From a virus (taxonomy: Duplodnaviria > Heunggongvirae > Uroviricota > Caudoviricetes), in the IMG/VR virus record IMGVR_UViG_3300028048_000115, positions 18,061 to 82,060 of that record: a stretch of 64,000 nt of DNA; one strand, given 5' to 3'. The position numbers and the translations under genes are program-made. Shown in pieces: positions 9,149 to 62,997 of this stretch. How positions within the stretch are numbered: position 1 is the first letter of the stretch; the number at the start of each line of letters is the position of its first letter. The notes under the pieces are model-generated. The model made no database searches. It was not told where the DNA came from and saw nothing but the letters and a program-made list of their open reading frames with translations.

Positions 9149-9370
9149 ATGGTTGATGTAGAGAAAACAATAACACTAACTGATGAAGAATTAAAAGAAC
9201 TAAAAGGATTATTGAACGTAGCAATTTCGGATTGTTTAGATGGTTCAATCATTGCACCCTTTGAGGATCTACGAAAAAAAGAAATTAAGCAAGCCAATGA
9301 ATATAAAAAACTTTACAACAAAATTTTTGACGCTGATAAAGTCATTGAACCTATAGACACGGAGGAATAA
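9149..9370 (+). CDS. hypothetical protein
   Basis: ORF track. Confidence 0.3.
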   Translation: MVDVEKTITLTDEELKELKGLLNVAISDCLDGSIIAPFEDLRKKEIKQANEYKKLYNKIFDADKVIEPIDTEE

Positions 9371-13075: not shown

Positions 13076-13420
13076 ATGATGGGTGATGTGTTAATTATTT
13101 TGATTGCATTTACGGTTTGTATGACTATCATAATTAACTGTTCAAGATAGAGGTTAAATGATGGGTGTTGTAGCAATTATATTTACAACTTAAACAACCA
13201 GAAAGATATGATCCTAAAGGATCATATATGAATGGTTGTACTATAAATAAGAATAATATAGGTATGGGACGTACCAAATTTAAGCATGTGGAGATTGATA
13301 AAAAGATCTCTGAAGCAATTTAGGGATCTAATCAATCAAAGAAGCATGAAGCATCTACCCTTTAGGGTAGATGTAGTTCACATTTATAGTCTTTATGTCT
13401 GTTCAAGATGAGGATTAAAA

Positions 13421-14376: not shown

Positions 14377-14389
14377 TTTTATATAAACT

Positions 14390-14630
14390 CAATGGATAAA
14401 AATATGAGTCTTTAGGCTCATACAGACATTGACATTCCAATAATTATATTATATAATATTTATATAAAAACAAATTTTAAAATTCGGTGAGTCTGTTGTT
14501 CACAACAAATCTCACCAAACTCTTGGGAAGGACCTCTCGGAGTATAAAGCCTTCAAACATTTGTGTTACACACAGTTTGAACTACTTTCTAAATGGAAGC
14601 ATCAACCCTTTAAGGTTGATGTAGGTCACA
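14390..14630 (+). mobile_element. miniature IS200/IS605-type element (left end plus right end of the TnpB IS at 57511-58966, no tnpB); carries a TnpB omega-RNA-like right-end sequence
   Basis: left end caatggataaaaatatgagtctttaggctcat and right end ...ggaagcatcaaccctttaaggttgatgtaggtcaca both match the full element. Confidence 0.7.
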
Positions 14631-24056: not shown

Positions 24057-24057
24057 A

Positions 24058-24769: not shown

Positions 24770-25001
24770 AATGCAGTATCCAAACCCAAATCATTATGAT
24801 TGTCCTAATGATTACTATAATGCGGTAGACATATACTTTGAACAGTTAAGCATAGTTATGAAATTGAAGAACCAAAGTATGCCTATGACAAAAATAAAAA
24901 TGATTATTCAGAACGCTTCAAATACGGTAAATACAATAAATTTTTATCCTAGCAAAAAGAAGGCTTATATGTCCTTATTAAGGATAAATAAGAAAAGTTA
25001 A
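24759..25001 (+). CDS. small hypothetical protein
   Basis: ORF track. Confidence 0.3.
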   Translation: MRNKMQYPNPNHYDCPNDYYNAVDIYFEQLSIVMKLKNQSMPMTKIKMIIQNASNTVNTINFYPSKKKAYMSLLRINKKS

Positions 25002-25038
25002 GGAATTAACCTAAATACAAATCAAAAAGGAAATAAAA

Positions 25039-25548
25039 ATGGATTTATTTGATAAAGCAGATGTTCTTACTTGCATAACAGCAGATAAAGCTGTGGTAGG
25101 AACAAAGGGATATTTTGGAGATTGCTTACAGGGGTTAATTACCGCTGTGGAACATAATAATGTTCAAGCATTATCAGCTGTTTATAAAACTGAGGTTTAT
25201 TGTTTTAAGAATGAACACGGACAGAATTATAATTGCTTTTTACCAGCGAATAAAGTTAGAAAGACGACATACAGACCAATCAAGAATATTAAAGAACTCT
25301 TTGCTTTTATGATGGCTGATGGCAATGAATATTCAGAGGAAAAAATGGTAGATATCTTAATGGGTCAGCGTTATGTACTCAAAAGCAAACTCAATAATGT
25401 CATAAAATATCATACTGTAAATTCCTTATATATAGAGTCCGACGGAATGGTAACTCTTGATTACTTAGATTTAGATGATTTATTTGATTATTACGAGTTT
25501 AAGAAGGGTGATAAATTTGTGCCATTTGCTATTGAAGAAAGGAAATAG
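25039..25548 (+). CDS. paralog family member 5
   Basis: same motifs (C-terminal FVPFAI). Confidence 0.5.
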   Translation: MDLFDKADVLTCITADKAVVGTKGYFGDCLQGLITAVEHNNVQALSAVYKTEVYCFKNEHGQNYNCFLPANKVRKTTYRPIKNIKELFAFMMADGNEYSEEKMVDILMGQRYVLKSKLNNVIKYHTVNSLYIESDGMVTLDYLDLDDLFDYYEFKKGDKFVPFAIEERK

Positions 25549-25630
25549 TATTTTTGTGATCTAGGTCACACAATTATTTTTTATTCTGTTTTATAATATA
25601 TTTGTAAGAAAGATGAGGGAGAATAGAAAA

Positions 25631-26173
25631 ATGAAACTATTTAATAAAGAAGATGTTTTAACAGGCATAACTGCTGATAAAGCTGTTGTGGGAATGAAGG
25701 GTTTTGTCGGAGATAGTTTATCTGCGTTAAATGACAAGATAAGGCGAAATGATGTGAGCACCCTAACAGACATTGTTGGGAACTGTGCTTATTGCTTTGA
25801 AGTTGATCATAAAGAACAGCTTTATGCTTTCTTTTTGCCTGGCGAAAGAGTTATGAAACCAACATACCGACCAATAGCAACGGTTGATGAACTCTTTGAT
25901 TTTATACTTCCTGAATTTGAATTAGTAGGCGATGAATACGGAAAGCAGGTTGACTCATATAGAAAGGCTGAAATTCTGTTAGGCAAAAAATTAGTGTTAA
26001 AGGATTTAATCAATAACCGAACAAAAGTTACACTCATTCAAGACGTTGATTTTAGCAATGATGATGCTGATAGCAGTAATATATATTTAAATAACTTGTC
26101 ACTAGAATATTTATTTAACAACTTCAAAATTCAAATTAACGGTGAATTTGTACCATTTGGAATTGATGAATAA
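25631..26173 (+). CDS. paralog family member 6
   Basis: same motifs; own promoter module upstream. Confidence 0.5.
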   Translation: MKLFNKEDVLTGITADKAVVGMKGFVGDSLSALNDKIRRNDVSTLTDIVGNCAYCFEVDHKEQLYAFFLPGERVMKPTYRPIATVDELFDFILPEFELVGDEYGKQVDSYRKAEILLGKKLVLKDLINNRTKVTLIQDVDFSNDDADSSNIYLNNLSLEYLFNNFKIQINGEFVPFGIDE

Positions 26174-30589: not shown

Positions 30590-30900
30590 TAATATTATTT
30601 TAAATTTCTATATATATAGAATATATAAATTTTTTGTGTTTACACAATTATTTTTTGGATCCATTTAAAATTTTTTGGTTCACACAATTATTTTTTGGAT
30701 CCATTTAAAATTTTTGTGTTCACACAATTATTTTTTTGGATCCATTTAAAATTCTTTTAAATTTCTATATATAGAATATATAAATTTTTTGTGTTTACAC
30801 AATTATTTTTTGGATCCATTTAAAATTTTTGTGTTCACACAATTATTTTTTTTGGATCCATTTAAAATTTTTTGGTTCCATTTAAAATTTTTTGGAGTCT
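30590..30900. repeat. largest array of the roughly 40-bp direct repeat unit (gtgtt[ct]acacaattattttttggatccatttaaaattttt), at least 6 copies, plus AT palindromes
   Basis: read directly. Confidence 0.85.
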
Positions 30901-30977
30901 AAATTTAATTAAAAATGTTTTTTTTTTAAAATATAAATAAATTAAAAATGTTTTTATAAAATATAAATAAATCAAAA

Positions 30978-31313: not shown

Positions 31314-31553
31314 TTTTAAAGCTCCTTAATTAAGGAGCTATTTTTGTCTATAAATTATTCAGTCTTTTTAAAAAGTCTTTATAAATCAATAACTTAGTAA
31401 GAGATATATTTTTGTTAAGTCTTTGATTTATAAAGACTTTTTTATTTTGTGAAAAAATTGTTAAAAAATATTTGCTTTTCTTATATACACATATTATAAT
31501 TATTGACATATTAATTTTATGGTGCTTGAGAAATATTTTAAAGGAGCGTTTAA

Positions 31554-32486: not shown

Positions 32487-32580
32487 GAACTCTCGGAGTG
32501 TGACCTACATCTACCTAAAGGATAGATGCTTCCATTTAGAACTAATTCCAGTTCAAACATTTAGGACTTGTGTTACACTA
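32487..32580 (-). mobile_element. partial copy of the IS right end (hairpin plus variable segment) in minus orientation
   Basis: tgtgacctacatctacctaaaggatagatgcttccatttagaac... matches the right end at 57511. Confidence 0.55.
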
Positions 32581-32686
32581 AGCGCCATAAAAATTTTTTT
32601 TAAAAAAATATTTGCTTTTCTTATATAACATATTATAATTAATATGTAAGAAATTTTAAAATCTTATAAGTAAGAGGAAAGAGAGA

Positions 32687-34432: not shown

Positions 34433-35695
34433 ATGTTATTTAAATATTTAATGGAAGCAGGTCTTAACATCAATGGCAAAACATATCCAAAATTTGGAAA
34501 TGCTTTAATTTGTGCGGGTGGTGCTGGTTGTTTTGACGAAAACACACTCGTGAAAACTAATGAAGGGTACAAACGAATAAAAGACATTAAGACTGGCGAT
34601 CTTGTGGAAACGCTTAACGAAAATACAAACGTTTCCGAATTTAAGGAAGTTGAAGAATTAAAGGCATTTGAAAGCACAAAACCTATGATTAAGTTAACTT
34701 TTGACAATGGCGAAGAAGTAATCTGTACTGAAGACCACGAATTTTTAGTTGATGGCAAATGGGTAATGGCAAAAGATTTAAAAATTAAAAAAGAATATAT
34801 CAAAAATTATTCAAAAACAGTTTATGACCTTAAAATCAAAGACAACCATAATTACAAAATTACAGAGTCTGATTTAATAGTTCATAATTCAGGTAAGGGT
34901 TTTGTTCTCAATAATGTGTGTTTATTCCAGGGAAGAACTTTTGACGTTGATAACATCAAAAAGAACCTAATCAAAATGAAAGATACCACCGTAATTTATA
35001 AGAAGTATCTTGAATGGAGAAAACAAAATCCTTCAGCACCAGAAACCATCAATGACCTTAAACTTGAGGAGCCTGAGCACGTTTCTTTACTTCACAAATT
35101 CTCATCTGAAATGGGTTATGGTGACGCTGTAATTAAAACTTTTATCACAAATGCTTCATTATTACCTGCTGATAGAAAACCAAATGTAATTTTTGACTGC
35201 ACTCTAAAATCATTTTCAGATTTGACGGATTTTAAGAAAATGCTTGACTTAGGTGGTTATGACCCTAAAAATATTCATTTAGTTTGGGTGCTAAACAAAT
35301 TTGAAGTTGCTTTGAAACAAAATGATGAAAGAGAACGAAAGGTTTCCATAAATGTTATGTTCAAGACTCACGAGGGTGTTTCCGAAAATCTTAGCAATAT
35401 CCTTAAAGATTTAAACTCTATTCGAAACATTGTTGATGGCGATATTTGGATTGTTCCAAATCAAACTAAAGTTGATAATGACTCGGTTGTTTCATTAAGA
35501 AAAACCTTTAGTGGTAAAGAAGTAAAAAGCGTAAGGTACGTAAAAGAATATTCCGCTTATCAAGTAAAGAAATCTGGTAAAGCACCAAAATCTTACGATG
35601 AAATCTGTTCCGATGTGATTGATAATCTCCATAAGTCTAAGATTATTGATAAAATCAAGGATTACGTTCCAGTTTCAACAAAAGATAATTGGTAA
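34433..35695 (+). CDS. P-loop NTPase or nucleotide-kinase-like protein interrupted by a mini-intein in the Walker A motif
   Basis: extein junction ICAGGAG|CFDEN...IVHN|SGKGF reconstitutes GGAGSGKG; Hint domain blocks present. Confidence 0.6.
   Translation: MLFKYLMEAGLNINGKTYPKFGNALICAGGAGCFDENTLVKTNEGYKRIKDIKTGDLVETLNENTNVSEFKEVEELKAFESTKPMIKLTFDNGEEVICTEDHEFLVDGKWVMAKDLKIKKEYIKNYSKTVYDLKIKDNHNYKITESDLIVHNSGKGFVLNNVCLFQGRTFDVDNIKKNLIKMKDTTVIYKKYLEWRKQNPSAPETINDLKLEEPEHVSLLHKFSSEMGYGDAVIKTFITNASLLPADRKPNVIFDCTLKSFSDLTDFKKMLDLGGYDPKNIHLVWVLNKFEVALKQNDERERKVSINVMFKTHEGVSENLSNILKDLNSIRNIVDGDIWIVPNQTKVDNDSVVSLRKTFSGKEVKSVRYVKEYSAYQVKKSGKAPKSYDEICSDVIDNLHKSKIIDKIKDYVPVSTKDNW
34529..34888 (+). other. 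mini-intein (about 120 aa, no endonuclease domain)
   Basis: begins with Cys, ends in HN, next residue Ser; TGD.V, EDHEF and VHNS blocks. Confidence 0.6.
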
Positions 35696-37469: not shown

Positions 37470-37485
37470 GGTTTATATATAAAAT

Positions 37486-37728
37486 CAATGGATAAAAATA
37501 TGAGCCTAAAGAGTCAATATATAGATATTGAATTTCTATTAAATATATTATATAATATTTATATAAAAACAAATTTTAAAATTCGGTGAGACTGTTGTTT
37601 ACAACAAATCTCACCAAACTCTTGGGAAGGACCTCTCGGAGTATAAAGCCTTCAAACATTTGTGTTACACACAGTTTGAACTACTTTCTAAATGGAAGTA
37701 TCTACCCTTTAGGTTGATGTAGGTCATA
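37486..37728 (+). mobile_element. miniature IS200/IS605-type element (left end plus right end, no tnpB), copy 2
   Basis: near-identical to 14390-14630. Confidence 0.7.
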
Positions 37729-38521: not shown

Positions 38522-38851
38522 TTTTGAAATTTGAGCACTCATTTTTGGGTGCTTTTATGTGAATTTTTTAAAAGTCTTTATAAATCAATAACTTAGTTTT
38601 TAGTTAAGTCTTTGATTTGTAAAGACTTTTTTATTTAAGTACCAAAAATAGTTGTTTTTTTTTAATATAAAGATTTATAATTAATATGTGAGGAGAAAGA
38701 AAATGAAAGTTTTACGTTTTAACATACTTGGTACTCAACTGTGAAGGTCGCCCAAATGGTACAAATTGCCAACAAAGAATTAAATAGAATAAAATGGTTT
38801 TTAAGAAACTTGAAAATCCAAATAATGCTAATTTAAGCGAGGTTCGATAAA

Positions 38852-39289: not shown

Positions 39290-39595
39290 TAATGTTCTAT
39301 GGACACCTTAAAATGTCTGTACAGACAAAATATTTGCGAGGAACTTTATAAGTACAAAAGAAAAGGAGGTTTAAATGAGTGATTTTTACGACCAAAAGCA
39401 ATTAGTGGATTCCGAATTAATCACAATTAAAGATGTTAATTCATTCATTAATAGACGTTTCAAAACTGAAGATGGTGCTCACTATTTTTTTTATGAAAAT
39501 CATTGAAATGCTTGTAAACGACAACGAAAAATTGCATTTGGAAATTGAAAATCTTAAAAAAGCATTGACAAATAATTATAATGTTATATAATATA

Positions 39596-39700
39596 AATGT
39601 AATTTCTGTTATACAGAAAATAATTGATAGAGGTCTTTTGTACAGACCAAACAGAGTTAAACAAAAGTGTTAAAATTTTTTTAATACATTTGAGTACATT
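39596..39700 (+). mobile_element. solo right-end copy of the first TnpB element (matches 3100-3225)
   Basis: ttctgttatacagaaaataattgatagaggtcttttgta(c/t)agacca... is shared with the tnpB 3' end. Confidence 0.65.
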
Positions 39701-39743: not shown

Positions 39744-40094
39744 ATGAGATACGAACTTAAAAACCCTGAAAAATTTAACTTCGGTGTTTGTGCAAACTCA
39801 AAGTACGAGTTAACAGAAGTGCTTAAAGAAGTTCTTACCGATAATTCTGCTGAGGAACTTTCAGATTTAGTTGAGAATTGCGAGGGTAGGGAATTCGTTG
39901 ATGAAATGAGCTACGCCGATTGCAAAGAATATTTAACCGAAAATTTTGATGAGTCCGAAGACAAAGAAGATATGCTTGACTCTTTAGAGGACTCTATCAA
40001 TGCTCTTGAGGGTTATAAAAACCCAAAGTTATTAAAAATCGCACGAGATTTAAAACGTGTTAAGGAGTTATTAAACCTATCACTTGTTTATTAA
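39744..40094 (+). CDS. hypothetical acidic protein
   Basis: ORF track. Confidence 0.35.
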   Translation: MRYELKNPEKFNFGVCANSKYELTEVLKEVLTDNSAEELSDLVENCEGREFVDEMSYADCKEYLTENFDESEDKEDMLDSLEDSINALEGYKNPKLLKIARDLKRVKELLNLSLVY

Positions 40095-40104
40095 AGGAGA
40101 AATA

Positions 40105-40527
40105 ATGTTATCATACTTATCTTTGATGTACGCATTAATGACCGTACACCCGTCTGAAATATCGTTTATTGAGGACTTTCAAAACTACACTAAATTGAGG
40201 TCCACTTCTTACATTGCTACTGCGTACCACATCAATTCCTGTGGTAAATCTAAATCCCATCCTAGTTATGGAATAACTGCAAACGGCACCAATGTAAGAG
40301 GAATTGAAGATTGGACTAAAAGATACATAGCAGTAGATCCTAACCTTATCAAATTAGGTTCAAAAGTGTTTATTGAATTTCCTGACGATTATGCTTATAT
40401 GTCAGGTGTTTATACTGCTGTTGATACTGGTGGAAAAATTAAGAACAGACACATTGATGTGTTTTTTGGAACCAAACACGAAGACTCTATGAAATTTGGC
40501 GTTCAGAATGTAAAAATTTATATGTGA
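40105..40527 (+). CDS. 3D-domain (MltA-like) peptidoglycan-hydrolase-like protein
   Basis: YTAVDTGGKIKNRHIDVFFG motif. Confidence 0.5.
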   Translation: MLSYLSLMYALMTVHPSEISFIEDFQNYTKLRSTSYIATAYHINSCGKSKSHPSYGITANGTNVRGIEDWTKRYIAVDPNLIKLGSKVFIEFPDDYAYMSGVYTAVDTGGKIKNRHIDVFFGTKHEDSMKFGVQNVKIYM

Positions 40528-40528
40528 A

Positions 40529-40668
40529 ATATGAACCTTTAGGCTCATATACAGAAACTCTTGGGAAGGACCTCTCGGAGTATAAAGCCTTCAAACATTT
40601 GTGTTACACACAGTTTGAACTACTTTCTAAATGGAAGTATCTACCCTTTAGGGTTGATGTAGGTCACT
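40529..40668 (+). mobile_element. truncated miniature element (left-end hairpin fused to the right end), copy 3
   Basis: atatgaacctttaggctcatatac is followed directly by the right-end sequence. Confidence 0.6.
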
Positions 40669-40733: not shown

Positions 40734-41135
40734 TTGTATTCAAAGGTAATTGGAATCCCTGATTTTGTTCCTCGTGAGGACAATGTAGAATTAGAAAACT
40801 GTATTAATACTGAAAAATACGTTAAGTTAATTCAGGAAATAAATGCTTCTAAAGTATCAGAAGCAGAAAAGAAATTTTTAAGACTTGCGGCAACCCGTTG
40901 GATCCAGTTCAGATATGACAACGTTGCTCAATATTTTTGTACTAAGTCTAGTCCAGAAATGCAGAAAATGTTACAACGGTTAGCTATGGTATTAATTGAT
41001 TTTGATGACGCCTTGGAAAACGGTTTAACAAATGCCCAGAAGTTTGTTTATGATCTTGCAAAAGAGCAATATGCTAAACTTGATAGATGGGACTTTGAAG
41101 AAGACCAACCAGAACTCTCAAATGGAGATAACTAA
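40734..41135 (+). CDS. hypothetical protein (TTG start)
   Basis: ORF track. Confidence 0.3.
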   Translation: MYSKVIGIPDFVPREDNVELENCINTEKYVKLIQEINASKVSEAEKKFLRLAATRWIQFRYDNVAQYFCTKSSPEMQKMLQRLAMVLIDFDDALENGLTNAQKFVYDLAKEQYAKLDRWDFEEDQPELSNGDN

Positions 41136-42223
41136 TGTATCAGTGGTATAAAAATCTCAAAGAATGTATGACAGGTTATGAAAGACCTGTTGTAAAACCT
41201 AGGGATTTTCTTGTTTTGATTGCTTCGTATGGTAGACCAGAGGGTTTACAAAATATGACAATGAAAACATTTAAACCTTTCTTAGATAAAGTAGATTACC
41301 GAATTATGGTTTCTGATGATGATAAAACATTGCCTAAGTATCTTGAGATGTACGGTGATAAGGTTTATGTTTTCAACAAAGACCAAGTTCTGAAAGAAAG
41401 CAATGCTGATACTGCCGATGTACTCAACATCAAAGGAGTTATTTTCTTTGAGAGAAATGTTGAATTTAAGGTAGCCAAGGAACTCGGTTATCGTTATTTT
41501 ATGCACTTGGAAGATGACTACCTTTCAATGTCATACCGTCTTGTAAGAAATAACGGTGCCGTTCCTAATTGTAAAATGAACCTAGAAAAATTTGACGAAA
41601 TTTGCGAGATGTATTTTAGGGTTTTAGATACTTCTCCATTTTTAAATGCAGTCTGTATGGCACAGGGTGGAGACTATGTAGGTGTTGCAGATAATACATT
41701 TATGAAGCAGGGTTATCTTTTCAAAGGAATGAATATTTATTGCTTTGACACAGAAAAAGAGTTTAAATTAACTGGAAGAATTAATGAGGATGCTAGTGCA
41801 TATTACATTAATGGTAAAATCGGAAAGTTAATGCTAACTCCTTTTATGATACAATTAACGCAGTTGCCAACACAGAATAACAAAGGTGGTGTTTCTGATA
41901 TTTATAAACGTTTTGGTACCTATCTGAAGTCAATCTATACGATTATTCAGAGACCTGATAATATGAAAATTGGTATCTTTACAACAAATAGTGGAACAGG
42001 AAAAGATAAATATGATACCAGAAGATTGCACCATCAATGTGATAAAAAGATGTGCTTTACTAAAATCATTTCATCAAAATATGCAAAGGGAACTATTCCG
42101 TATTCTGATGTTGAACAACCAGATTTGGATCCTGATTTCTATAATCAGAAAAACTTTTTAGAATTACCTGAACCAAATGTTGATGATGTTTACATTGAAG
42201 CACGTTTAACAGATGAATGGTAA
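41135..42223 (+). CDS. hypothetical protein
   Basis: ORF track. Confidence 0.4.
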   Translation: MYQWYKNLKECMTGYERPVVKPRDFLVLIASYGRPEGLQNMTMKTFKPFLDKVDYRIMVSDDDKTLPKYLEMYGDKVYVFNKDQVLKESNADTADVLNIKGVIFFERNVEFKVAKELGYRYFMHLEDDYLSMSYRLVRNNGAVPNCKMNLEKFDEICEMYFRVLDTSPFLNAVCMAQGGDYVGVADNTFMKQGYLFKGMNIYCFDTEKEFKLTGRINEDASAYYINGKIGKLMLTPFMIQLTQLPTQNNKGGVSDIYKRFGTYLKSIYTIIQRPDNMKIGIFTTNSGTGKDKYDTRRLHHQCDKKMCFTKIISSKYAKGTIPYSDVEQPDLDPDFYNQKNFLELPEPNVDDVYIEARLTDEW

Positions 42224-49866: not shown

Positions 49867-50895
49867 TCAGGTTCCAAATCTCACTACTGTATTTAATAAA
49901 ATTTGTTCCTTTTTCTTTGAATTTTTTGCTTTATCGTGGTTAGAAATAATTTTTCGGCACTTATTAAAATTGAAATTCAAGTGCTCCTTGGAATATTCAT
50001 AAGTGTCTGTGATTTTTAAAAATCCCCAATATGGAAGTGTTTGACGAGCATCAAAAACCGTCATTCGCTTTTTCTTTTTGACCTTTCTGACCTTTCTCCT
50101 GATTTTGCTTAATAATCTCTTTCTAAGAGTTGTCCTATTGTCATAAAATCTGAAACCAAGGTAATCGGCAAAATCACCATTACCGAAACAACCAATTTTG
50201 AAATTTGGTTTTATTTCTAGTTTGAGATCTGCTAAATACATTTTAATAAGTTCAAATTTTACAAGCAAATCTTCCTTTGTTTTTTCAATGAAAAGCATAT
50301 CGTCCATGTATCTACAATAAAAAGGTATCCTCAATACCTCTTTTACCCAGTGGTCGAATTTGCTTAGATAAAAATTTGCGTACCACGGACTCGTATAAAA
50401 TCCAATAGGCAAACCTGGACTGTATGAGTCTATAATTTTAAATAATTCCTGTTTAAATTCAAAGTCAGCAATTATTTTTAATTTTTCTTTTAATATATTA
50501 TGATCGATATTTTCAAAAAAGTGTTTAATGTCAATCTGCAAGAAGTAATAATCGCCGTGTTTCCTGATAAATCCCTCAACCGCACTTTTAGCAGAATGTA
50601 AACCTCTACCAGATATTGACGAACAAATCAACCTATAAAAACTTTTTCTAAAAATAGGTTTAAGAATATTCATTTGAGCGTGCTGAACTACCAAGTCGGT
50701 GGGACTAGGTACCACAATAGTACGTTTCTTGTGAGACGTGTGGTCAAAGAAAGTCACAGGTTTAGCAACTGATGGAACATAGTTCCTAAGCATTTCTGTT
50801 GTGAAAATTTTTGGAGCTCTTTTAGCAGTATTAACTGCAATAGCAATGTTATCTTCGGAAAGATACATTCCCATAAGATGTTTATAAGATTTCAT
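49867..50895 (-). CDS. DGR reverse transcriptase
   Basis: GLPIGFYTSPWYANFYL (DGR-type motif 4) and YMDD box. Confidence 0.85.
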   Translation of the reverse strand: MKSYKHLMGMYLSEDNIAIAVNTAKRAPKIFTTEMLRNYVPSVAKPVTFFDHTSHKKRTIVVPSPTDLVVQHAQMNILKPIFRKSFYRLICSSISGRGLHSAKSAVEGFIRKHGDYYFLQIDIKHFFENIDHNILKEKLKIIADFEFKQELFKIIDSYSPGLPIGFYTSPWYANFYLSKFDHWVKEVLRIPFYCRYMDDMLFIEKTKEDLLVKFELIKMYLADLKLEIKPNFKIGCFGNGDFADYLGFRFYDNRTTLRKRLLSKIRRKVRKVKKKKRMTVFDARQTLPYWGFLKITDTYEYSKEHLNFNFNKCRKIISNHDKAKNSKKKEQILLNTVVRFGT

Positions 50896-54717: not shown

Positions 54718-54920
54718 AGGAATCCTTTTAAAAATAAAGCACTCAATTTTTGGGTGCTTTTTATTTTTTATTCACTTAAAAATTTTTGTGTTTTCATACT
54801 ATAATTATTCAGTATTTTTTACGTTTTTTAAAAAGTCTTTATAAATCAATAACTTAGTTGAAGATCTATTTTTGTTAAGTCTTTGATTTATAAAGACTTT
54901 TTATTTAAGGGAATAAAAAA

Positions 54921-54936
54921 TGTGATTTTTATCACA
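54921..54936. promoter_or_regulatory. CRP-consensus-like palindrome TGTGATTTTTATCACA followed by a MotA-box-like promoter
   Basis: read directly. Confidence 0.45.
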
Positions 54937-55022
54937 AAAAACAATTAAAAATGTTGTTTTCTTATAATAAAGATGTATAATTAAAATGTAATTTGAATTG
55001 AGATTTATTTGAGGACTTAAAA

Positions 55023-56982: not shown

Positions 56983-57211
56983 TTTTATGGAAGAAAAGTT
57001 AGATGACGCCGATGTCGCTGTTGCAAATATGCGTGACGGCATTGACAGATTGTTAAATGCTTATGAACTTGTTGGTAATGATCCAGACTATAATGACCAA
57101 TTAAGAGAAATGACATTTGACATTCTAGGCGATATGATGTGTGCTCTTGAGGAAGTGTACTCTGTTTTAAGAGCAGCTATGAAGGAGAAGGATAATGCTT
57201 CAGGAAATTAA
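56975..57211 (+). CDS. small hypothetical protein, paralog B
   Basis: similarity to the upstream gene. Confidence 0.35.
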   Translation: MTDFMEEKLDDADVAVANMRDGIDRLLNAYELVGNDPDYNDQLREMTFDILGDMMCALEEVYSVLRAAMKEKDNASGN

Positions 57212-57212
57212 G

Positions 57213-57515
57213 ATGAAATCTTCGGAGTTTAAACCTCTTGATGATTTTCTTTTAATTAAGCCGGACATTGCAAAGAATGAGGAAGTCACAAATGGTGGTA
57301 TCATTCTTAACTATCAGAAATCTGTTTTAATGAGACCTTGCTCTGGAACTGTTCTGGCAGCCGGCGAAAATTGTGAGAATATCGTTGCGGGGGATTATAT
57401 TGTATTCCCTGATACCGATGGAATTGAGGTTAAATTTGAAGACTCTGATAGGTCTGTTGATTATCCGCAGTTTATGCTTTTAAGGTATAAATCTGTGATT
57501 GGAAAGAAATTGTGA
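57213..57515 (+). CDS. GroES-like co-chaperonin (T4 gp31-like)
   Basis: FKPLDDFLLIKP...TNGGIIL...GTVLAAGEN...GDYIVF GroES-fold pattern. Confidence 0.55.
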   Translation: MKSSEFKPLDDFLLIKPDIAKNEEVTNGGIILNYQKSVLMRPCSGTVLAAGENCENIVAGDYIVFPDTDGIEVKFEDSDRSVDYPQFMLLRYKSVIGKKL

Positions 57516-58966
57516 CCTACATCTACCCTAAAGGGTAGATGCTTCCATTTAGAACTACAGAAGTTGTAATTCTAGTTCAGACATCTGGGACTTGTGCGTA
57601 GCACAGAAATCCAGATGTTTGAAGGCTTTATACTCCGAGAGGTCCTTCCCAAGAGTTTGGTGAGATTTGTTGTAAACAACAGTCTCACCGAATTTTAAAA
57701 TATTAATTGCTGAATTATAATCTCTATCAATAATATTACCACAGTTACACTTTAGTGTACGGTTGGTAACATCTTTCATTTCTGGATGCCTTTCTCCACA
57801 TTTAGAACAGACCTGAGAACTTGGATAATATTTGTCTGTATAGACAATTATGTCTCCAAACTTCTCAGCATTTTCTTCTAACTTTTTGAGAAAATAACTC
57901 CATTGTAGCAAACTTATAGACTTTCCATGATTTCCACCTTTAGTGGAAGTTTTGGAATCCTTATAAGAAGTATGTTCAGCCATTTCTTTAAGGTCTAAGT
58001 TCTCAATAACTATCAGCTCATTGTGTTTACACAAATTTCTTGATAACTTGTTGATATAATCAACTTGGATATTATGAGCTCTTTCAAATAATTTGTTACG
58101 CTTCATCGTGATACGATGGACTTTAACGGAGACCTTACGCTTTTTCTTAGATTTGTTTCTCATCTTTGAAATAGCAGTATTTAAAAAATCAATTTTATTT
58201 TGGAGTAATTCCATCTTAGATCTCTTTGTTAAGAACTCTGGTGCATTTGCACCAAAACTATCAACGAAGAAATCTTTTAAAGAAAAATCTAAACCAATAT
58301 GACCATTTTCTACACGGTCTTCGTAAACCTTGTCGACCTCGACAAGTAACGATACTTTGTAAACTCCAGTTTTGGTTCTTTTAATAGTTCCTGACTTAAT
58401 TTTGCCGTTTAAAATTCAGGTTTAATATTTTTACAGTTGAAATGAACATTTCCTACCTTTGGAATTTTCACGTATGACTTTGACTTACAGTCAGGATTAT
58501 ACGAAAGTTTTAAATTATTACTATAAAAATAATCTGAATGAGCCTTTTTAGATCTGAAACTAACTAATCCAACTTTTTTGCCTTTTGCTCTTTTTGACCT
58601 ATTGATTTTATTGGTCTGTTTAAATTTATAAAGAACTTGTTGGATAGACCAAGAATAAGAACCTAAAAGAAATTCGTACTCCGTACGCAATTCTTTATAA
58701 TCCTTATAATTTGGTGCTCTATTTTCTTTAAGTGCTTTTAAATATTCTTCTACATATTTGTTATAGATAAATCTACAATCATTTAAATGTTTATCTTAAA
58801 GCAGTTTTTGAGCACTATCAGGCTTTAGTTCAAGAACTAAACCTCTGATAATCTTGGTCATTCAAATTCCTCTATTTAAAATTTGTTTTATATAAATATT
58901 ATATAATATAATTATTAGAATGTCAATGTCTGTATATAGTCTAAAGGTTCATATTTTTATTCATTG
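57511..58966 (-). mobile_element. IS200/IS605-family TnpB-only element (left end at 58966, right end at 57511), with tnpB disrupted
   Basis: ends match the miniature copies; the right end overlaps the TGA of the upstream gene. Confidence 0.7.
57555..58860 (-). pseudogene. tnpB: tnpB (RuvC-I IGLDFS, zinc finger CSKCG...CNCG, RuvC-III RDYNSAINI) split over at least 3 frames
   Basis: ORF fragments 58409-58690 and 57555-58214 plus an out-of-frame RuvC-I segment. Confidence 0.6.
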
Positions 58967-59153
58967 GGTTATATAATTTATATTTAATAAAAAATCAAGA
59001 ATTTTGATTGCACATCAAACATAAAAACCCTCAATGAAGAGGGTTGTTATTTGTACCATTTTAGTGAGTTCTTTTAGATTGAACTCTTTATTCCTCTATT
59101 AAGAGTTTTTATAATGAATTTAAAAGAGCGATACAAAGTATCGCTCAATTTAG

Positions 59154-62100
59154 TTACATACTTACACGGTCTTTTATTTCTGACATTTTAGCGTCATTCA
59201 TTCTTGTGGATCCATTAACATTAGAATAGCCTAGATAACCACAGACTCTTGAAATTGTTGTGGTATTAGAACTTCCACAATGAGGACATTTGTTTCCGCC
59301 ATTTTGATAATCAAACCCACACTCATTGCAATGTGAACTATCAAAGTTTACACCTTGATAAAAACCTTTCTGCATACCTCTAACAATAATTGTTTTAAGT
59401 GCTTCAAGATTTTCTGGATTATCAATTCTTACGTACTGAATGTGGCCACCATTTACTTTATGGAAACACTCAAACTCAGCATCCTGCTTATCAACTGGTG
59501 TAATATTCGCACCCACGTGACAATGGAATGAGTTTGTGAAATAATCACCAAAACGGGTGTCGCCTGTTAACTCAGCGTACTGAACTGCTTGTTTTCCACA
59601 AAGACTTTCTGCTGGGGTACCATAAAGTGCGTATAAATGATTATCTTCCTTTTTAAATTTTTCTATCTTTTCTAATATAAAATCAATAACTTTTGAAGCA
59701 AATTGAGATTTGTCTTCATAAATTGTCTTGCCGTTCCAAAGAACCGTACTTTCATTTAACGCAGTAATTCCAAAACTTGATGTCATATAACGGGTTAAAT
59801 TGCCTATGCAGTCGTCTGGATTTAAAGTACCACCGTAAAAACCACCTTGAGTGAACGCAAGTGGATTTGTGGATGCCTTGATACTTGCGATAAAGTCATA
59901 ACGCTTGCACAAAAATTGTCTAATTGTCTGTAAGCGACTTTCTAAAAGTGACCAAAACTTTGATTTCCATTCGGAACCAAATTCTTGTTTTGCCACTGCC
60001 ATAATTACAGGAATATTCAATGATACAGCACCAATGTTACATCTTCCAACAGTAATACTTTCTTTAGTTTCTGGATCCTCCCAATGAGATAGGTAAGCTC
60101 TACAATTATGTGAAGCAACTCCAGAAAATACAAATGTTTCGGACTCCGTTTGGACATCATAAGAATAACCAACTTCATTATCAGTCTCAATATTTGTAAT
60201 CTTAATAGGTTCCTCATTTTCATTCATTAAAAATGAATTGGTCTCTAATTCATTCGCAAGAATTTGACCGTTGTCCGTAACAAATGGGTGGTCTTCGGTA
60301 ACCCTGATTGTTGCACCGTTTTCAAATGTTATCTTTAGCCAATTAGTAACATTCTTATTCCTGATAATTCTCTTTAGTTTTGTGTATGTGCCATCAATAT
60401 CTTGAATACTAATATTAAAGCTTTCTAAATCAAGAACATCAGAAACTTCATTGCTAAAGGTATCAAATGTATTTTTAACTTCTTTATGAGTTACTGATAA
60501 TTTCAAATCAGCGTAATCGTTGCTTCTAATCTTATCTTCCCATAAATCAACAATTTCAATTCCTAATTGTTTTGCGTATTCACGTTTTTCCTCGTGATAT
60601 TTTGGTCCTCTCTTGTGATATCCTTTCTCTGAATATTCGGTATCAGAATTTTTTGAATGAGTAGCAAAATCCTGAACTTCAATTCCATAATTTAACTTAG
60701 GGAAAAATACATCAATTTCATAAGTTTTACCGTTGAAGGTAAATTTAGAATTGCGGACAAAGTCCTTTTCAGTTAAGCATTCCTCTTTATACATCTTTTC
60801 TGTATAACCAGAATATTTTAAGTCATCTACAAGTTTAAGCTCCAAATATGAATCCCAAATGTTAAACAGCGATACGTCATAACCTCGTTCAACTCGTACA
60901 TTTCTCCTTGGGAATTGGATTCCAAAATGTTCTTCAAAATCAATTCTGCAAGGTTTTCTTCCAATAGTTTCCTTGAATTTTCTTGCCCAAAGATTTACTA
61001 GATCACCATCAAATGAGGCATAACCGTTTTCTGAAAAATTATGCTCATTTAATATCTTTTTTGAACCCTTTGAGTGCTCAAACTTGGTTTCTAACCAATT
61101 TGCAGGTCTTCCATTTTTTTGGTAATAATGATTAAACAGGTCACCAATTTTTACATTGCTAAAATACTTTGAGCGCTTGATATTCACTCTTTCGTTGTAA
61201 TCAATACAACCCATTGGTGAAACAATAGTGCCGTAATTTTTAAATTCTTGAGCAACTTTGTTATGATCAATATCTCCACTTAAAGAGAGGTAATCAGGGT
61301 ACATACATTTTGCAGATGTTTTGATACAGTCGTCAAATAATTCTGAACTGTATTGATCATTAGCGATTTGGTTTTCATCATATAGATAAACCAATTTTGG
61401 AAACACTACTGAAACACCGTTGTGTCCTTTCTTACGTGTTTTTAAAATACTCTTTCCAATCTCTTTCAACCAAAACTTATCATTTTCAGAAATGTTGGTA
61501 TCCCATTGACCAAAGGTTAATGTTGTAAATGCAAAATCGCCTCTTGAGCAAGGTACTGTATTGAGTTTTAATTCTAATGATTGGAAACCTTGTTTTAACT
61601 CTGTAATAGTATCTTCAATAGCGTATCGTTCAGCGTCTAACTTATTGATACCTCTGTGAATATGAATATCAATGCTTCTGTTAAAAGACTTTTTAACATA
61701 AGGTAATAAAACCTTATCAATTTCAGCAAGAGTAAAACCACCAAATTGCTGAGCAGTGGCAACAAGAGTAATATCTCCAATAACCTGTAATGCAGACAAC
61801 ACGCTTTTAGGTTCATTATAATGAATGTTTGACATTGTGAAACCGTCTTTTAAAACGTTACCAATATCAAAAAGACAGCAGTTGATGGAACCAAAAATCA
61901 TATCACGCATATCGTGGATATAAATGTCACCTCGTTTTGTTAGGAACTTTTCTGTCTTGTTTAATTCAAATTCTTGATATAATCTTTTGGTTGTTGAACC
62001 TCTTATTAATGAACCCTTTGTACTGATTAAACTTGAGTCAAAATTTGCGTTCTCACGGTCACCTAAGTGAATAATGTCATCTGCTTCTTCCTTGAGTTTT

Positions 62101-62387
62101 CTCCAAGTAGCGTAATCGGTTGCTTTGTAATTTCGGTATCCGTAATATGCTTCTGCAATATCGTTATAGTTAAAATGTTTTAAAGCATTAACAACAATGC
62201 TGTGAATTTTAATTGTGCTAATACTTTCGGCATTTACCATTGTTTGACAATACTCCGCAATTTGAGTGAGAATATTGTTAGGAATGCTTTCACCTATGTG
62301 GTCTGCGGCCTTGATGATTGCATTGATGATTTTAGAATTATTCCAAAATTCTGTTTCATCATTTTTCTTAATAACTCTAATTGGCAT
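59154..62387 (-). CDS. nrdD: anaerobic ribonucleoside-triphosphate reductase with an inserted intein
   Basis: ATP-cone at the N-terminus; glycyl-radical RVCGY and Zn CPHCGS at the C-terminus; extein junction VSPMG|C...HN|CRAYLSHW. Confidence 0.85.
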   Translation of the reverse strand: MPIRVIKKNDETEFWNNSKIINAIIKAADHIGESIPNNILTQIAEYCQTMVNAESISTIKIHSIVVNALKHFNYNDIAEAYYGYRNYKATDYATWRKLKEEADDIIHLGDRENANFDSSLISTKGSLIRGSTTKRLYQEFELNKTEKFLTKRGDIYIHDMRDMIFGSINCCLFDIGNVLKDGFTMSNIHYNEPKSVLSALQVIGDITLVATAQQFGGFTLAEIDKVLLPYVKKSFNRSIDIHIHRGINKLDAERYAIEDTITELKQGFQSLELKLNTVPCSRGDFAFTTLTFGQWDTNISENDKFWLKEIGKSILKTRKKGHNGVSVVFPKLVYLYDENQIANDQYSSELFDDCIKTSAKCMYPDYLSLSGDIDHNKVAQEFKNYGTIVSPMGCIDYNERVNIKRSKYFSNVKIGDLFNHYYQKNGRPANWLETKFEHSKGSKKILNEHNFSENGYASFDGDLVNLWARKFKETIGRKPCRIDFEEHFGIQFPRRNVRVERGYDVSLFNIWDSYLELKLVDDLKYSGYTEKMYKEECLTEKDFVRNSKFTFNGKTYEIDVFFPKLNYGIEVQDFATHSKNSDTEYSEKGYHKRGPKYHEEKREYAKQLGIEIVDLWEDKIRSNDYADLKLSVTHKEVKNTFDTFSNEVSDVLDLESFNISIQDIDGTYTKLKRIIRNKNVTNWLKITFENGATIRVTEDHPFVTDNGQILANELETNSFLMNENEEPIKITNIETDNEVGYSYDVQTESETFVFSGVASHNCRAYLSHWEDPETKESITVGRCNIGAVSLNIPVIMAVAKQEFGSEWKSKFWSLLESRLQTIRQFLCKRYDFIASIKASTNPLAFTQGGFYGGTLNPDDCIGNLTRYMTSSFGITALNESTVLWNGKTIYEDKSQFASKVIDFILEKIEKFKKEDNHLYALYGTPAESLCGKQAVQYAELTGDTRFGDYFTNSFHCHVGANITPVDKQDAEFECFHKVNGGHIQYVRIDNPENLEALKTIIVRGMQKGFYQGVNFDSSHCNECGFDYQNGGNKCPHCGSSNTTTISRVCGYLGYSNVNGSTRMNDAKMSEIKDRVSM
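60105..61208 (-). other. intein (about 368 aa) in NrdD carrying a Vsr/PD-(D/E)xK-like endonuclease domain
   Basis: starts CIDYNERV, ends VASHN before Cys; internal IDVFFPKLNYGIEVQDFATH resembles the Vsr fold. Confidence 0.6.
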
Positions 62388-62997
62388 TATTGGTGTCCTT
62401 CTTTGGTTTTTCAAAAATTGCTTTTTTAATTGCGTTTAAATGTGCTTTACGGGAGTCTAAACCATTTAGGCCACCGTTAATTCTTTTTGTAGTAACCGCA
62501 AGATCACGTTCACGACTTAACATATTGATTTTCCAAAACCAAATTGCACTCTTAACAGCACCCTCAACGGTACTGAAATAGTCAGGATCGGTAACGTCAA
62601 GTGCTTGCATTGCAAGAGTATAATTTCGTTTTCCTGTTAACTGAATTAAACCTCTTCCTCTGTATTTCCAACCATCACCAGAGTATTCATCACCATTTCC
62701 CATTCTGTTAGCATAAACAACATTTGCGATTTTTTCTGGTCGTCTTACATAGTCTAATGGGTTTCTTGGAACATAGGTATATACAAAGTATTTTGGAAAC
62801 ACTCTCTTTAAGCCTTCTAAAGAATAGTTTAAATTTTCAACAACAAATCTAAACCCTCCAGACTCGTGGGCACATTGTGCTAAGAAAATAAGTTTGTTTT
62901 CATCTTCCCAAGGTTCCTTATCTAACTCTTCTGCAAGTTTTTCGATAATGCCAGGAATAGCATTGGGATACGCTTTCTTAATTTTAAGAATATCCAT
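62377..62997 (-). CDS. endolysin, glycoside hydrolase family 19-like
   Basis: AQCAHESGGF...GRGLIQLTG..NY motifs. Confidence 0.6.
   Translation of the reverse strand: MDILKIKKAYPNAIPGIIEKLAEELDKEPWEDENKLIFLAQCAHESGGFRFVVENLNYSLEGLKRVFPKYFVYTYVPRNPLDYVRRPEKIANVVYANRMGNGDEYSGDGWKYRGRGLIQLTGKRNYTLAMQALDVTDPDYFSTVEGAVKSAIWFWKINMLSRERDLAVTTKRINGGLNGLDSRKAHLNAIKKAIFEKPKKDTNNAN

What the first reader, a model, noticed from the sequence alone, without database searches (positions are those of the whole stretch)
57511..58966. TnpB-only IS200/IS605 element inserted at the stop codon of the gp31-like gene, with a decayed tnpB
Seen directly: the element is bounded by a left end (caatgaataaaaatatgaacctttagac..., hairpin) at 58966 and a right end ending ...catctaccctttagggtagatgtaggtcaca at 57511. 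The final right-end bases overlap the TGA of the GroES-like gene. The tnpB reading frame is split over at least 3 frames, though RuvC-I, zinc-finger and RuvC-III motifs are all still recognisable. No tnpA is in the window. The right end downstream of tnpB is where an omega-RNA would be encoded.
Basis: partly seen in the sequence, partly recalled or inferred. Interest (0 to 1): 0.6.

Follow-up and report, generated by a model that had tools for sequence, protein, structure and literature searches.

The report
Dead TnpB transposon in a phage
A small guide-RNA-carrying transposon of a well-known bacterial type sits exactly on the stop codon of a phage chaperonin gene; its nuclease gene is truly broken, but its promoter and guide-RNA part are intact, so it is an ordinary but unusually well-documented relic.

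Summary
The finding holds, with corrections. Window 57512-58972 (minus strand, 1461 bp) is a TnpB-only IS200/IS605-type element in a low-GC T4-like phage.

**What is damaged**
- tnpB has two lesions, not a three-frame split: TTA>TAA at codon 22 (58796-58798) and a 1-nt loss in a T-run (58411-58414).
- Both lesions recur in an independent assembly, so they are real. The TAA also occurs in a copy in another phage.
- This copy's left-end hairpin is lost.

**What is intact**
- The RuvC D-E-D residues and the zinc finger.
- The right-end hairpin.
- A 180-nt structured ωRNA-like region with compensatory changes across copies.
- A perfect sigma-70 promoter in the left end.

**Insertion site**
- Element-free sites in 98-100% identical relatives show insertion 3' of TTTAY with no duplication.
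- At gp31 the change is TTA TAA to TTG TGA, so the protein is unchanged.
- Eight element-free relatives carry TTTAY plus a perfect 20-nt match to the would-be guide.

**Other copies and context**
- Five ωRNA-bearing miniatures and one remnant lie in the window.
- No tnpA was found.
- The sequence on the far side of the element does not match the element-free relatives.
- No independent contig spans 57737-57745.

This is a new member of a known kind. Interest is moderate.

The parts
57512..58972 (-). Whole element (1461 bp): left end, tnpB pseudogene, ωRNA region and right end.
   Evidence: Boundaries come from element-free sites in relatives and from comparing independent copies.
58973..58976 (-). 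Target / transposon-adjacent motif TTAT directly 5' of the left end. The family consensus is TTTAY.
   Evidence: Element-free sites for M1 (TTTAT|), M5 (TTTAC|) and gp31 (TTTAT| or TTTAC|) are. Left flanks of L004, L005, L008, L026 and L027 all end in TTTAT.
58862..58972 (-). Left end (111 nt), starting ATAACCCAATGAATAAAA. The subterminal hairpin at about 58934-58954 is degenerate in this copy.
   Evidence: Alignment shows a 3-nt deletion in the 3' arm. The DNA fold is 0 kcal/mol, against -4.6 to -10.8 in four of five sister copies.
58898..58926 (-). Perfect sigma-70 consensus promoter, TTGACA-17-TATAAT, inside the left end and facing tnpB and the ωRNA.
   Evidence: 12 of 12 consensus matches. 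The -10 TATAAT is kept in all full and miniature copies.
57555..58861 (-). tnpB pseudogene. The repaired product is about 435 aa with RuvC D-E-D and zinc finger conserved.
   Evidence: The closest intact relative is the 450-aa ORF in L004.
58796..58798 (-). In-frame nonsense codon TAA at codon 22, where intact relatives have TTA (Leu).
   Evidence: Also present in L038 and in the L005/L036/L037 copy in another phage.
58411..58414 (-). Frameshift: a T4 run where intact relatives have T5 (GAATTTTTAAAC > GAATTTTAAAC). The shifted frame stops at 58409-58411.
   Evidence: Identical in the independent assembly L038.
57512..57691 (-). ωRNA-like scaffold (180 nt). It overlaps the last ~135 nt of tnpB and runs to the right-end boundary.
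   Evidence: MFE -70.9 kcal/mol, z = -7.56. 37 consensus pairs, 10 with compensatory changes. Covariance-model score 194 bits. No Rfam family matches.
57520..57541 (-). Right-end subterminal hairpin CATCTACCCTTTAGGGTAGATG, followed by the terminal TAGGTCAC. The transposon-encoded motif is TCAC.
   Evidence: DNA fold -8.3 kcal/mol. Compensatory changes in L001, L003 and L024. Motif count against chance.
57492..57511 (-). Flank that would form the ωRNA guide (AATTTCTTTCCAATCACAGA). It is antisense to the last codons of the gp31-like gene.
   Evidence: By position, following the rule for TnpB ωRNAs (PMC8612924, PMC10055086). A perfect 20-nt match preceded by TTTAY occurs in 8 element-free relatives.
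57195..57515 (+). Cpn10/GroES-like (gp31-like) gene. The third base of its last Leu codon and its TGA stop come from the right end.
   Evidence: Pfam Cpn10 2e-10. Element-free alleles read AAA TTA TAA and the filled allele AAA TTG TGA, giving the same protein.
14383..14629 (+). Miniature M1: left end with promoter fused to the ωRNA and right end; tnpB deleted at an 8-nt microhomology (ATTTTAAA).
   Evidence: (169 bits). The element-free site is in L015, L016 and L018.
37477..37727 (+). Miniature M2. It has the same internal deletion junction as M1 but sits at another locus.
   Evidence: (166 bits).
40522..40667 (+). Miniature M3: a shortened left end plus an ωRNA lacking its first stem. It supplies the last codon and stop of ORF 40084-40527.
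   Evidence: 120 bits. Also present in the 98% relative L009.
32500..32623 (-). M4: a fragment carrying only the right end and the 3' part of the ωRNA.
   Evidence: 55 bits.
13187..13381 (+). M5: a 195-bp miniature with a divergent interior but the same type of left-end and right-end hairpins.
   Evidence: 30 bits. Clean element-free site ...TTTAC|ATTTATAG in L015 and L016.
9120..9161 (+). M6: a ~42-nt remnant made of the left-end start fused to the right-end hairpin 3' arm.

Best explanation
This is a non-autonomous, TnpB-only IS200/IS605-family insertion sequence (IS1341-like layout) in a T4-like phage genome, and this copy is a relic.

**How the family works**
- *Shown:* copies insert as a unit 3' of TTTAY, with no target duplication. 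They have similar subterminal hairpins at both ends and a conserved TCAY terminus.
- *Inferred:* this is the signature of single-strand 'peel-and-paste' transposition by a Y1 TnpA supplied in trans.
- *Shown:* a sigma-70-type promoter in the left end faces tnpB. A structured RNA region overlaps the tnpB 3' end and runs to the right-end boundary.
- *Inferred from ISDra2 and ISGst work:* that transcript is processed into an ωRNA whose guide is the first ~16-20 nt of flanking DNA. Intact TnpB with this ωRNA cuts TTTAY-plus-guide sites. Those are the vacated donor site, or the element-free allele in a co-infecting relative. Recombinational repair then restores or copies the element (homing).

**State of this copy (shown)**
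- tnpB is knocked out by a nonsense codon and a frameshift.
- The left-end hairpin needed for excision is lost.
- The promoter, ωRNA scaffold and right end are intact.
- The insertion replaced TTA TAA by TTG TGA, so the chaperonin is unchanged.

**Consequence (inferred)**
The copy can no longer make nuclease and probably cannot be excised. At most it supplies an ωRNA to a TnpB made elsewhere, as the five miniatures would.
For: **Identity**
- Pfam TnpB domains.
- 1e-31 to 1e-34 matches to solved ISDra2 TnpB, with D/E/D aligned.
- 410 relatives at E <= 1e-20; the 120 best listed are 397-443 aa and 76-91% identical.

**Lesions are real**
- Intact L004, L026 and L027 have TTA and T5 where the window has TAA and T4.
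- The independent assembly L038 has both lesions.
- L005, at another locus in another phage, shares the TAA but has its own different 1-nt deletion. Frameshifts therefore piled up independently after the nonsense mutation.

**Transposition signature**
- Element-free and filled pairs for M5, M1 and gp31.
- TTTAT or TTTAC flanks at 10 or more copies.

**ωRNA**
-.

**Promoter**
-.

**Left-end hairpin loss**
-.

**Guide and motif match in element-free relatives**
-.

**No tnpA**
-.

**Known precedent**
- Non-autonomous tnpB elements and ωRNA-bearing PATE-like miniatures acted on in trans are described in PMC10055086.
Against: - No RNA or activity data exist. ωRNA expression, guide length and the motif are inferred.
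- The right-end hairpin is also a DNA-level TnpA site, so part of the 'RNA' covariation may reflect DNA constraints.
- No TnpA source has been identified.
- The sequence beyond the left end (NrdD side) is not what follows gp31 in element-free relatives, which carry a block of at least 3.5 kb there.
- No independent contig spans 57737-57745: L029 stops at 57737 and L038 at 57745. The two halves of the element are therefore joined only in the window itself. That join could be a collapse of two copies.
- The five L038 SNPs cluster at 58119-58233, which hints at mixing between copies.
Confidence: 0.85

Rival explanations
1. The dead full-length copy and the miniatures are kept because they are working ωRNA genes. 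Each is a promoter plus scaffold plus a locus-specific guide. An intact same-family TnpB, made elsewhere in this phage genome or by a co-infecting relative, loads them. It then cuts element-free alleles of competitor phages. That drives homing of each insert and local exclusion of the competitor's markers, as T4 free-standing homing endonucleases do.
For: - The promoter (12/12) and ωRNA are intact while tnpB and the left-end hairpin have decayed.
- Two independent deletion types both fuse the left-end promoter directly to the ωRNA start. One has the junction ATTTTAAA (M1, M2, L012). The other has TAATATTT (L004a, L004b, L008, L027a).
- M1 and M2 share one junction at two loci, so the miniature spread after losing tnpB.
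- A related phage contig carries one intact tnpB, one dead copy and at least three miniatures together.
- An intact 91% relative occurs in the same sample as L038.
- Element-free relatives carry the motif plus a perfect guide match.
- Element-free M1 sites show a motif variant (TTTAA) and a guide-position mismatch.
- Non-restorative homing has been shown for plasmids and proposed for phages (PMC11870625, PMC13565253).
Against: - There is no intact same-family tnpB in these 64 kb. The only intact TnpB-like gene (1939-3171) is 22% identical and unlikely to use this scaffold.
- Retention of promoter and ωRNA may only reflect recent decay.
- Microhomology alone can explain the deletion junctions.
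- M2's left-end hairpin is also decayed, and M3 and M4 are truncated.
- The polymorphism sample is tiny.
Confidence: 0.2
2. tnpB is actually intact and the two lesions are sequencing or assembly errors.
For: - One lesion lies in a homopolymer (T5>T4).
- The element is a multi-copy repeat in a metagenome-type assembly, and contigs break inside it.
Against: - Both lesions are identical in L038, from a different sample and assembler, with 5 SNPs elsewhere.
- The TAA is a substitution, and it is shared with a copy in another phage.
- That other copy carries its own separate frameshift, as expected for a pseudogene lineage.
Confidence: 0.04
3. The gene is still expressed through recoding: read-through of TAA and a -1 shift at the T-run.
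For: - The shift site is a short slippery-looking run (GAA TTT TAA).
- All catalytic residues downstream are preserved.
Against: - The site is not an X XXY YYZ heptamer.
- The perfect re-pairing slip (+1) leads to a stop after five codons.
- More than 100 relatives encode the protein in one frame with TTA and T5.
- The TAA lineage has acquired different frameshifts in different copies.
- The rest of the window reads normally with TAA as stop.
Confidence: 0.02
4. The present gp31-element-NrdD arrangement arose by ectopic recombination between two copies, one at the gp31 stop and one downstream of nrdD. That deleted or rearranged the intervening block. On this view the element is a recombinant and marks a synteny breakpoint. 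This adds to the best explanation rather than replacing it.
For: - The right-end flank equals the element-free gp31 site, and the left-end flank equals a different TTAT site.
- That second site's element-free form (...AAATTAT|ATTTAAAAAAATG) appears in L040, from the same sample as the filled L029.
- Element-free relatives have a 480-aa gene block after gp31 that is absent from the window.
- A second synteny break falls exactly at the right end of M2 in L012.
Against: - The same pattern would come from an assembler collapsing two copies.
- L040's 89-nt tail could not be placed.
- No contig spans the element.
Confidence: 0.45

Closest known systems
Non-autonomous TnpB-only IS200/IS605 elements (IS1341-type layout), such as the ISGst families of Geobacillus stearothermophilus and ISDra2 of Deinococcus (PMC10055086, PMC8612924)
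   Same: - TnpB with RuvC D-E-D and zinc finger.
- The ωRNA overlaps the tnpB 3' end and runs to the right-end boundary.
- Subterminal hairpins at both ends.
- Insertion 3' of a 4-5-nt motif (here TTTAY, close to IS608's TTAC) with no duplication, and a terminal TCAY motif.
- No tnpA next to the gene.
   Different: - It sits in a lytic-type T4-like phage genome.
- The close family (over 75% identity) was seen only on phage-like contigs.
- This copy is dead: a nonsense codon, a frameshift and a lost left-end hairpin.
- No cognate TnpA is known.
PATE-like / ωRNA-only miniature IS605 derivatives (PMC10055086)
   Same: M1-M5 keep the ends and the ωRNA, lack any ORF, and must rely on TnpA and TnpB in trans.
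   Different: Here two independent deletion types both join a left-end promoter directly to the ωRNA. The copies lie in phage intergenic regions directly after stop codons.
Free-standing homing endonuclease genes of T-even phages (SegA-G, Mob; reviewed in PMC13565253)
   Same: Presence/absence polymorphism between near-identical co-circulating phages, placement between conserved genes, and a predicted cut site in the element-free allele.
   Different: Recognition would be RNA-guided rather than protein-based. The inserted unit is a transposon with its own ends. No activity has been shown, and in this copy the nuclease gene is broken.
TldR, nuclease-dead TnpB-derived RNA-guided repressors in prophages (PMC10705468)
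   Same: TnpB homologue plus ωRNA carried by a phage.
   Different: TldRs are intact ORFs with mutated RuvC sites and no transposon ends. Here the RuvC residues are conserved but the ORF is interrupted and the transposon ends are present.

Membership tests
IS200/IS605 family (TnpB-only, IS1341-like group) | Encodes a TnpB (OrfB_IS605 / RuvC plus zinc-ribbon) protein. | tested here: met
   Pfam PF07282 8.9e-17, PF01385 2.4e-7 and PF12323 1.5e-5 on the repaired translation. ISDra2 TnpB matches at about 1e-31.
IS200/IS605 family (TnpB-only, IS1341-like group) | Inserts 3' of a specific 4-5-nt target, without target-site duplication and without terminal inverted repeats. | tested here: met
   Filled and element-free pairs: TTTAC|M5|ATTTATAG, TTTAT|M1|ATTATAAAA, and TTTAT or TTTAC|full|AATTTC.
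IS200/IS605 family (TnpB-only, IS1341-like group) | Subterminal imperfect palindromes (hairpins) at both the left and right ends. | tested here: inconclusive
   The right-end hairpin is present (-8.3 kcal/mol) and covaries. The left-end hairpin is present in M1, M5, L004 and L027 but lost in this copy (0 kcal/mol).
IS200/IS605 family (TnpB-only, IS1341-like group) | Mobilised by a Y1 HUH transposase (TnpA), in cis or in trans. | not testable with these tools
   No Y1_Tnp in 40 window ORFs or next to 5 relatives. The rest of the genome and the host were not available.
Active TnpB RNA-guided nuclease (OMEGA system) | Uninterrupted ORF. | tested here: not met
   TAA at codon 22 and a -1 frameshift at 58411-58414, both reproduced in L038.
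Active TnpB RNA-guided nuclease (OMEGA system) | RuvC catalytic D, E and D, plus the zinc finger. | tested here: met
   GLDFS, VIENL and IDRDYN align with D191, E278 and D361 of ISDra2 TnpB. CSKC...CNC is present.
Active TnpB RNA-guided nuclease (OMEGA system) | A structured ωRNA encoded at the tnpB 3' end and right end, with its guide taken from the flank. | tested here: met
   z = -7.56. 10 of 37 pairs are compensatory. The covariance model finds the full copy and M1-M5 and nothing convincing elsewhere: the remaining matches score under 28 bits and overlap the same elements, bar one at 10 bits. Expression was not tested.
Active TnpB RNA-guided nuclease (OMEGA system) | RNA-guided cleavage of targets next to the adjacent motif. 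| not testable with these tools
   Only the predicted substrate was found: TTTAY plus a 20/20 guide match in 8 element-free contigs.
TldR (domesticated nuclease-dead TnpB) | Intact ORF with inactivated RuvC, and loss of the transposon ends. | tested here: not met
   The ORF is broken, the RuvC residues are conserved and the ends are present.
IStron (group I intron plus IS605) | A group I intron ribozyme at the 5' end. | tested here: not met
   No Rfam family at gathering or at E <= 10 beyond noise.

The most novel reading that the evidence does not exclude
A TnpB/ωRNA family so far seen only on phage-like contigs may work as an RNA-guided homing and competitor-exclusion system among co-infecting T4-like phages. 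The dead full-length copy and the promoter-ωRNA miniatures would then be a dispersed set of guide-RNA genes served in trans by one intact TnpB. The many copies would also act as recombination points that reshuffle phage genome modules.
Probability: 0.2. Interest if true: 0.75.

Novelty: new member of a known kind. Interest (0 to 1): 0.4.

Why it matters
The layout is textbook: a TnpB-only IS605-type element with its ωRNA, plus PATE-like miniatures. The copy in question is a pseudogene, so the finding itself is ordinary.

What gives it some value is the natural material around it:
- Near-identical phages from about a dozen samples are polymorphic for the insert.
- The element-free alleles carry exactly the motif and 20-nt sequence that the element's ωRNA would target.
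- The insertion is silent for the host gene.
- Intact relatives 91-93% identical are available.

Together these make the proposed but untested idea of RNA-guided 'non-restorative' transposon homing between co-infecting phages directly testable. They also supply a defined adjacent motif (TTTAY) and scaffold for a compact ~430-aa TnpB.

Tried and rejected
- **Close phage relatives.** Megablast of the region against GenBank phages found nothing. Protein mode found only relatives at 31% identity or less.
- **Rfam.** Nothing at gathering threshold or at E <= 10 beyond noise, so no curated ωRNA family fits.
- **gp31-like gene in IMG/VR.** No relative.
- **Metagenome scan for the left-end flank.** Nothing.
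- **Scans for the TAA allele.** Only the already known L005 copy.
- **Exact-protein look-ups.** The 219-aa C-terminal ORF and ORF 40084-40527 are not on record.
- **TnpA seed from phage c-st.** Its 'OrfA' is 219 aa and annotated as similar to an ORF of transposon ISC1913; from its size I judged it an IS607-type serine recombinase rather than a Y1 TnpA, so it was not used as a probe.
- **Bacterial genome scan for the family.** Only small contigs of one fecal 'Bacilli' MAG, probably binned phage, so no host and no autonomous copy were identified.
- **L040's 89-nt tail.** It could not be placed in any fetched locus.
- **Programmed frameshift or read-through, and assembly error.** Both considered and rejected; see the rival explanations.
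- **The second TnpB-like gene (1939-3171) as a trans helper.** Rejected because it is only 22% identical.
Full report
**Setting.** The window is 31.9% G+C. It encodes T4-like functions:
- a split family-B DNA polymerase, closest (48%) to Vibrio schizo-T4 phages;
- an ATP-dependent DNA ligase, NrdD with an intein, NrdG-like radical-SAM, endonuclease VII and dUTPase;
- a Cpn10/GroES-like gene at 57195-57515.

No GenBank phage matches at the DNA level.

**The observation.** On the minus strand between the Cpn10-like gene and nrdD lies a TnpB gene. Translating the three minus-strand frames shows the following:
- The ORF starts at 58861.
- It reads 21 codons, then meets an in-frame TAA (58796-58798).
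- It continues in the same frame to ...NIKPEF, then stops at 58409-58411.
- It resumes in the -1 frame (LNGKIKSG...) and runs to the stop at 57555-57557.

So there are two frames and one nonsense codon, not three frames. With the two lesions repaired, the 435-aa product hits Cas12f1-like_TNB (8.9e-17), OrfB_IS605 and HTH_OrfB_IS605. It aligns over its whole length with ISDra2 TnpB structures (about 1e-31). The RuvC D, E and D (GLDFS, VIENL, IDRDYN) and the zinc finger are conserved.

**Are the lesions real?**
- IMG/VR and ENA hold close relatives, and L004, L026 and L027 are intact (450, 441 and 427 aa; 90.5-93% nucleotide identity to the window element).
- These read TTA where the window has TAA, and GAATTTTTAAAC where the window has GAATTTTAAAC.
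- In the large protein collection, 410 relatives have E <= 1e-20. The 120 best are 76-91% identical and 397-443 aa.
- L038 is an independent assembly (ENA ERZ27252073) covering window 64000-57745. It is 99.92% identical with no gaps and carries both lesions.
- A copy at a different locus in a different phage contig (L005/L036/L037) shares the TAA. It has the normal T-run and its own separate 1-nt deletion.

The simplest reading is that the nonsense mutation came first. That lineage then still spread, or spread its allele by gene conversion, and frameshifts accumulated independently. This is pseudogene behaviour. It argues against both sequencing error and recoding.

**Ends and target.** BLAST and a covariance model find six further relatives of the ends in the window:

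| Copy | Coordinates | Strand |
|---|---|---|
| M1 | 14383-14629 | + |
| M2 | 37477-37727 | + |
| M3 | 40522-40667 | + |
| M4 | 32500-32623 | - |
| M5 | 13187-13381 | + |
| M6 (42-nt remnant) | 9120-9161 | + |

Relatives of the same phage from other samples supply element-free sites:

| Site | Element-free | Filled |
|---|---|---|
| M5 | ...ATTATATTTAC\|ATTTATAG | ...TTTAC\|AACTTAAAC...GTAGTTCAC\|ATTTATAG |
| M1 | ...GATTTTAT\|ATTATAAAA | ...TTTTAT\|ATAAACTCAATGG...GTAGGTCAC\|ATTATAAAA |

From these pairs:
- The family inserts 3' of TTTAY with no duplication.
- It begins ATAA(A)CYCAATGR and ends GKTCAY.
- Left flanks of L004, L005, L008, L026 and L027 all end in TTTAT.
- Applied to the full copy, the element is 57512-58972, with TTAT at 58973-58976.

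**The stop-codon insertion.** From the window's own flanks I predicted an element-free site GGAAAGAAATT|ATAA..., that is AAA TTA TAA. Seven contigs carrying exactly the same 106-aa protein read precisely that (L028, L030-L035). An eighth, 98% relative reads AAA TTG TAA (L011). The filled allele reads AAA TTG TGA. The right end therefore supplies the third base of the Leu codon and the stop, and the protein is unchanged. Homologues all end within 1-4 residues of ...IGKK, apart from three with longer C-terminal tails. The filled junctions occur in at least four samples (L029, L043, L038, L039, L041).

**ωRNA.**
- The 180 nt from TCGGTGAG to the right-end boundary (57691-57512) fold at -70.9 kcal/mol, z = -7.56.
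- In an alignment of 15 copies, RNAalifold predicts 37 pairs, 10 of them with compensatory double changes. One example is the stem TTCAAACAT/ATGTTTGAA changing to TTTTAAGTG/CACTTAAA.
- A further stem (AGAATYAAA/TTTRATTCT against ACAGTCAGA/TCTGATTGT) covaries by eye.
- The covariance model scores the full copy at 194 bits and M1-M5 at 169, 166, 120, 55 and 30 bits. The other matches are under 28 bits and overlap the same elements, apart from one at 10 bits.
- Rfam has no matching family.
- The flank that would serve as guide (AATTTCTTTCCAATCACAGA) is antisense to the last gp31 codons. It is found, 20/20 and preceded by TTTAT or TTTAC, in all eight element-free contigs.

**Left end.**
- The left end carries a perfect TTGACA-17-TATAAT promoter facing tnpB.
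- The subterminal hairpin present in M1, M5, L004 and L027 (-4.6 to -10.8 kcal/mol) is destroyed in this copy by a 3-nt deletion (0 kcal/mol).
- The right-end hairpin is intact at -8.3 kcal/mol.

**Miniatures.**
- M1 and M2 share one internal junction, at the 8-nt repeat ATTTTAAA. It removes tnpB and fuses the left-end promoter region to the ωRNA start.
- Four miniatures in other phage contigs share a second, different junction (TAATATTT) that places the ωRNA 9 nt after the -10 hexamer.
- Identical junctions at different loci mean the miniatures moved after losing tnpB, that is, in trans.

**No transposase.** None of 40 ORFs of 100-260 aa in the window hits Y1_Tnp. Neither do the neighbours of five family members, all on phage-like contigs carrying gp5, PAAR, gp13, ArdA and lysozyme genes. 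A scan of 185,579 species genomes found the family only on small contigs of one fecal MAG.

**A complication.**
- Beyond the target TTAT, the window's left flank (nrdD side) is unrelated to what follows gp31 in the element-free relatives. Those carry a 480-aa gene block of at least 3.5 kb there.
- L040 comes from the same sample as the filled L029. It shows the nrdD-side flank joined to other DNA exactly at the left-end boundary.
- This fits recombination between two copies at two TTAT sites. It would equally result from an assembler collapsing two copies.
- No independent contig crosses 57737-57745.
- A similar break lies at the right end of M2 in L012.

**Comparison with known systems.** Every feature matches the non-autonomous IS200/IS605 tnpB elements and PATE-like ωRNA miniatures described in bacteria (PMC10055086, PMC8612924). 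Homing into element-free alleles of co-resident replicons has been shown for plasmids and proposed for phages (PMC11870625, PMC13565253). I found no report of it in phages.

**Verdict.** This is a correctly recognised but ordinary relic of a known kind. Its interest lies in the population context rather than in the copy itself.

Noticed in passing
window 1939-3171 (+); 3094-3156 and 39593-39655: A second, intact TnpB-like ORF (410 aa; OrfB_IS605 1.1e-18, Cas12f1-like_TNB 1.7e-11). It is only 22% identical to the studied one, lacks a CxxC zinc finger, and has G where the canonical RuvC-II Glu aligns (possibly a rearranged active site). Its 3' end is duplicated at 89% identity at 39593-39655, so this second family may also have an ωRNA-only copy.
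   Followed up: partly
window 49867-50895 (-): A 342-aa ORF with a reverse-transcriptase domain (RVT_1, 2.8e-17) in a T4-like phage. It could belong to a group II intron, a retron or a DGR; this was not examined.
   Followed up: no
window 59154-62414 (-) and 34433-35695 (+): NrdD carries an intein with an inserted endonuclease-like segment (1077-1086 aa). A separate 420-aa ORF has Hint/intein-splicing domains. The genome is rich in selfish elements.
   Followed up: no
window 41135-42223 (+): A TET-associated glycosyltransferase domain (TAGT, 6.7e-13), which suggests hypermodified DNA bases in this phage.
   Followed up: no
window 10950-11100, 16510-16700, 30610-30920; also 17207-17357, 31354-31457, 38543-38646, 54758-54997: Intergenic clusters of ~20-nt repeats containing GGATCC (TTTTTTGGATCCATTTAAAA) alternating with TTTGTGTTTACACAAT motifs, plus a ~100-nt repeat family. 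They are shared with other phage contigs (L005, L026, L028) and may be regulator-binding arrays.
   Followed up: no
window 9120-9161 and ORF starting at 9150: The M6 remnant (left-end start fused to the right-end hairpin arm) provides the ATG and first five codons (MVDVE) of the downstream ORF.
   Followed up: no
window 40517-40527: M3 is also inserted at a gene end. ORF 40084-40527 takes its last codon and its TGA from the miniature's left end. The 98% relative L009 reads ATG TAA there.
   Followed up: partly
L015, L016 and L018 at the element-free M1 site (equivalent to window 14382/14630): Element-free alleles differ at exactly the predicted motif (TTTAT>TTTAA in L016) and at position 10 of the M1 guide match (A>G in L015). 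This is what escape from RNA-guided cutting would look like, but n = 3.
   Followed up: partly
L012 positions 1-1217 against window 37728 onward: A 98.7% relative loses synteny with the window exactly at the right-end boundary of M2. This is a second case of a breakpoint at an element end.
   Followed up: partly
window 22424-26173 (+): A tandem array of six or seven paralogous ~170-190-aa genes with conserved C-terminal ...GKWVPFG motifs.
   Followed up: no
L044 7378-8262: A flagellin gene (Flagellin_N/C) sits on a phage-like contig 1.7 kb upstream of an intact family TnpB. It recalls TldR-fliC associations, but nothing was tested.
   Followed up: no
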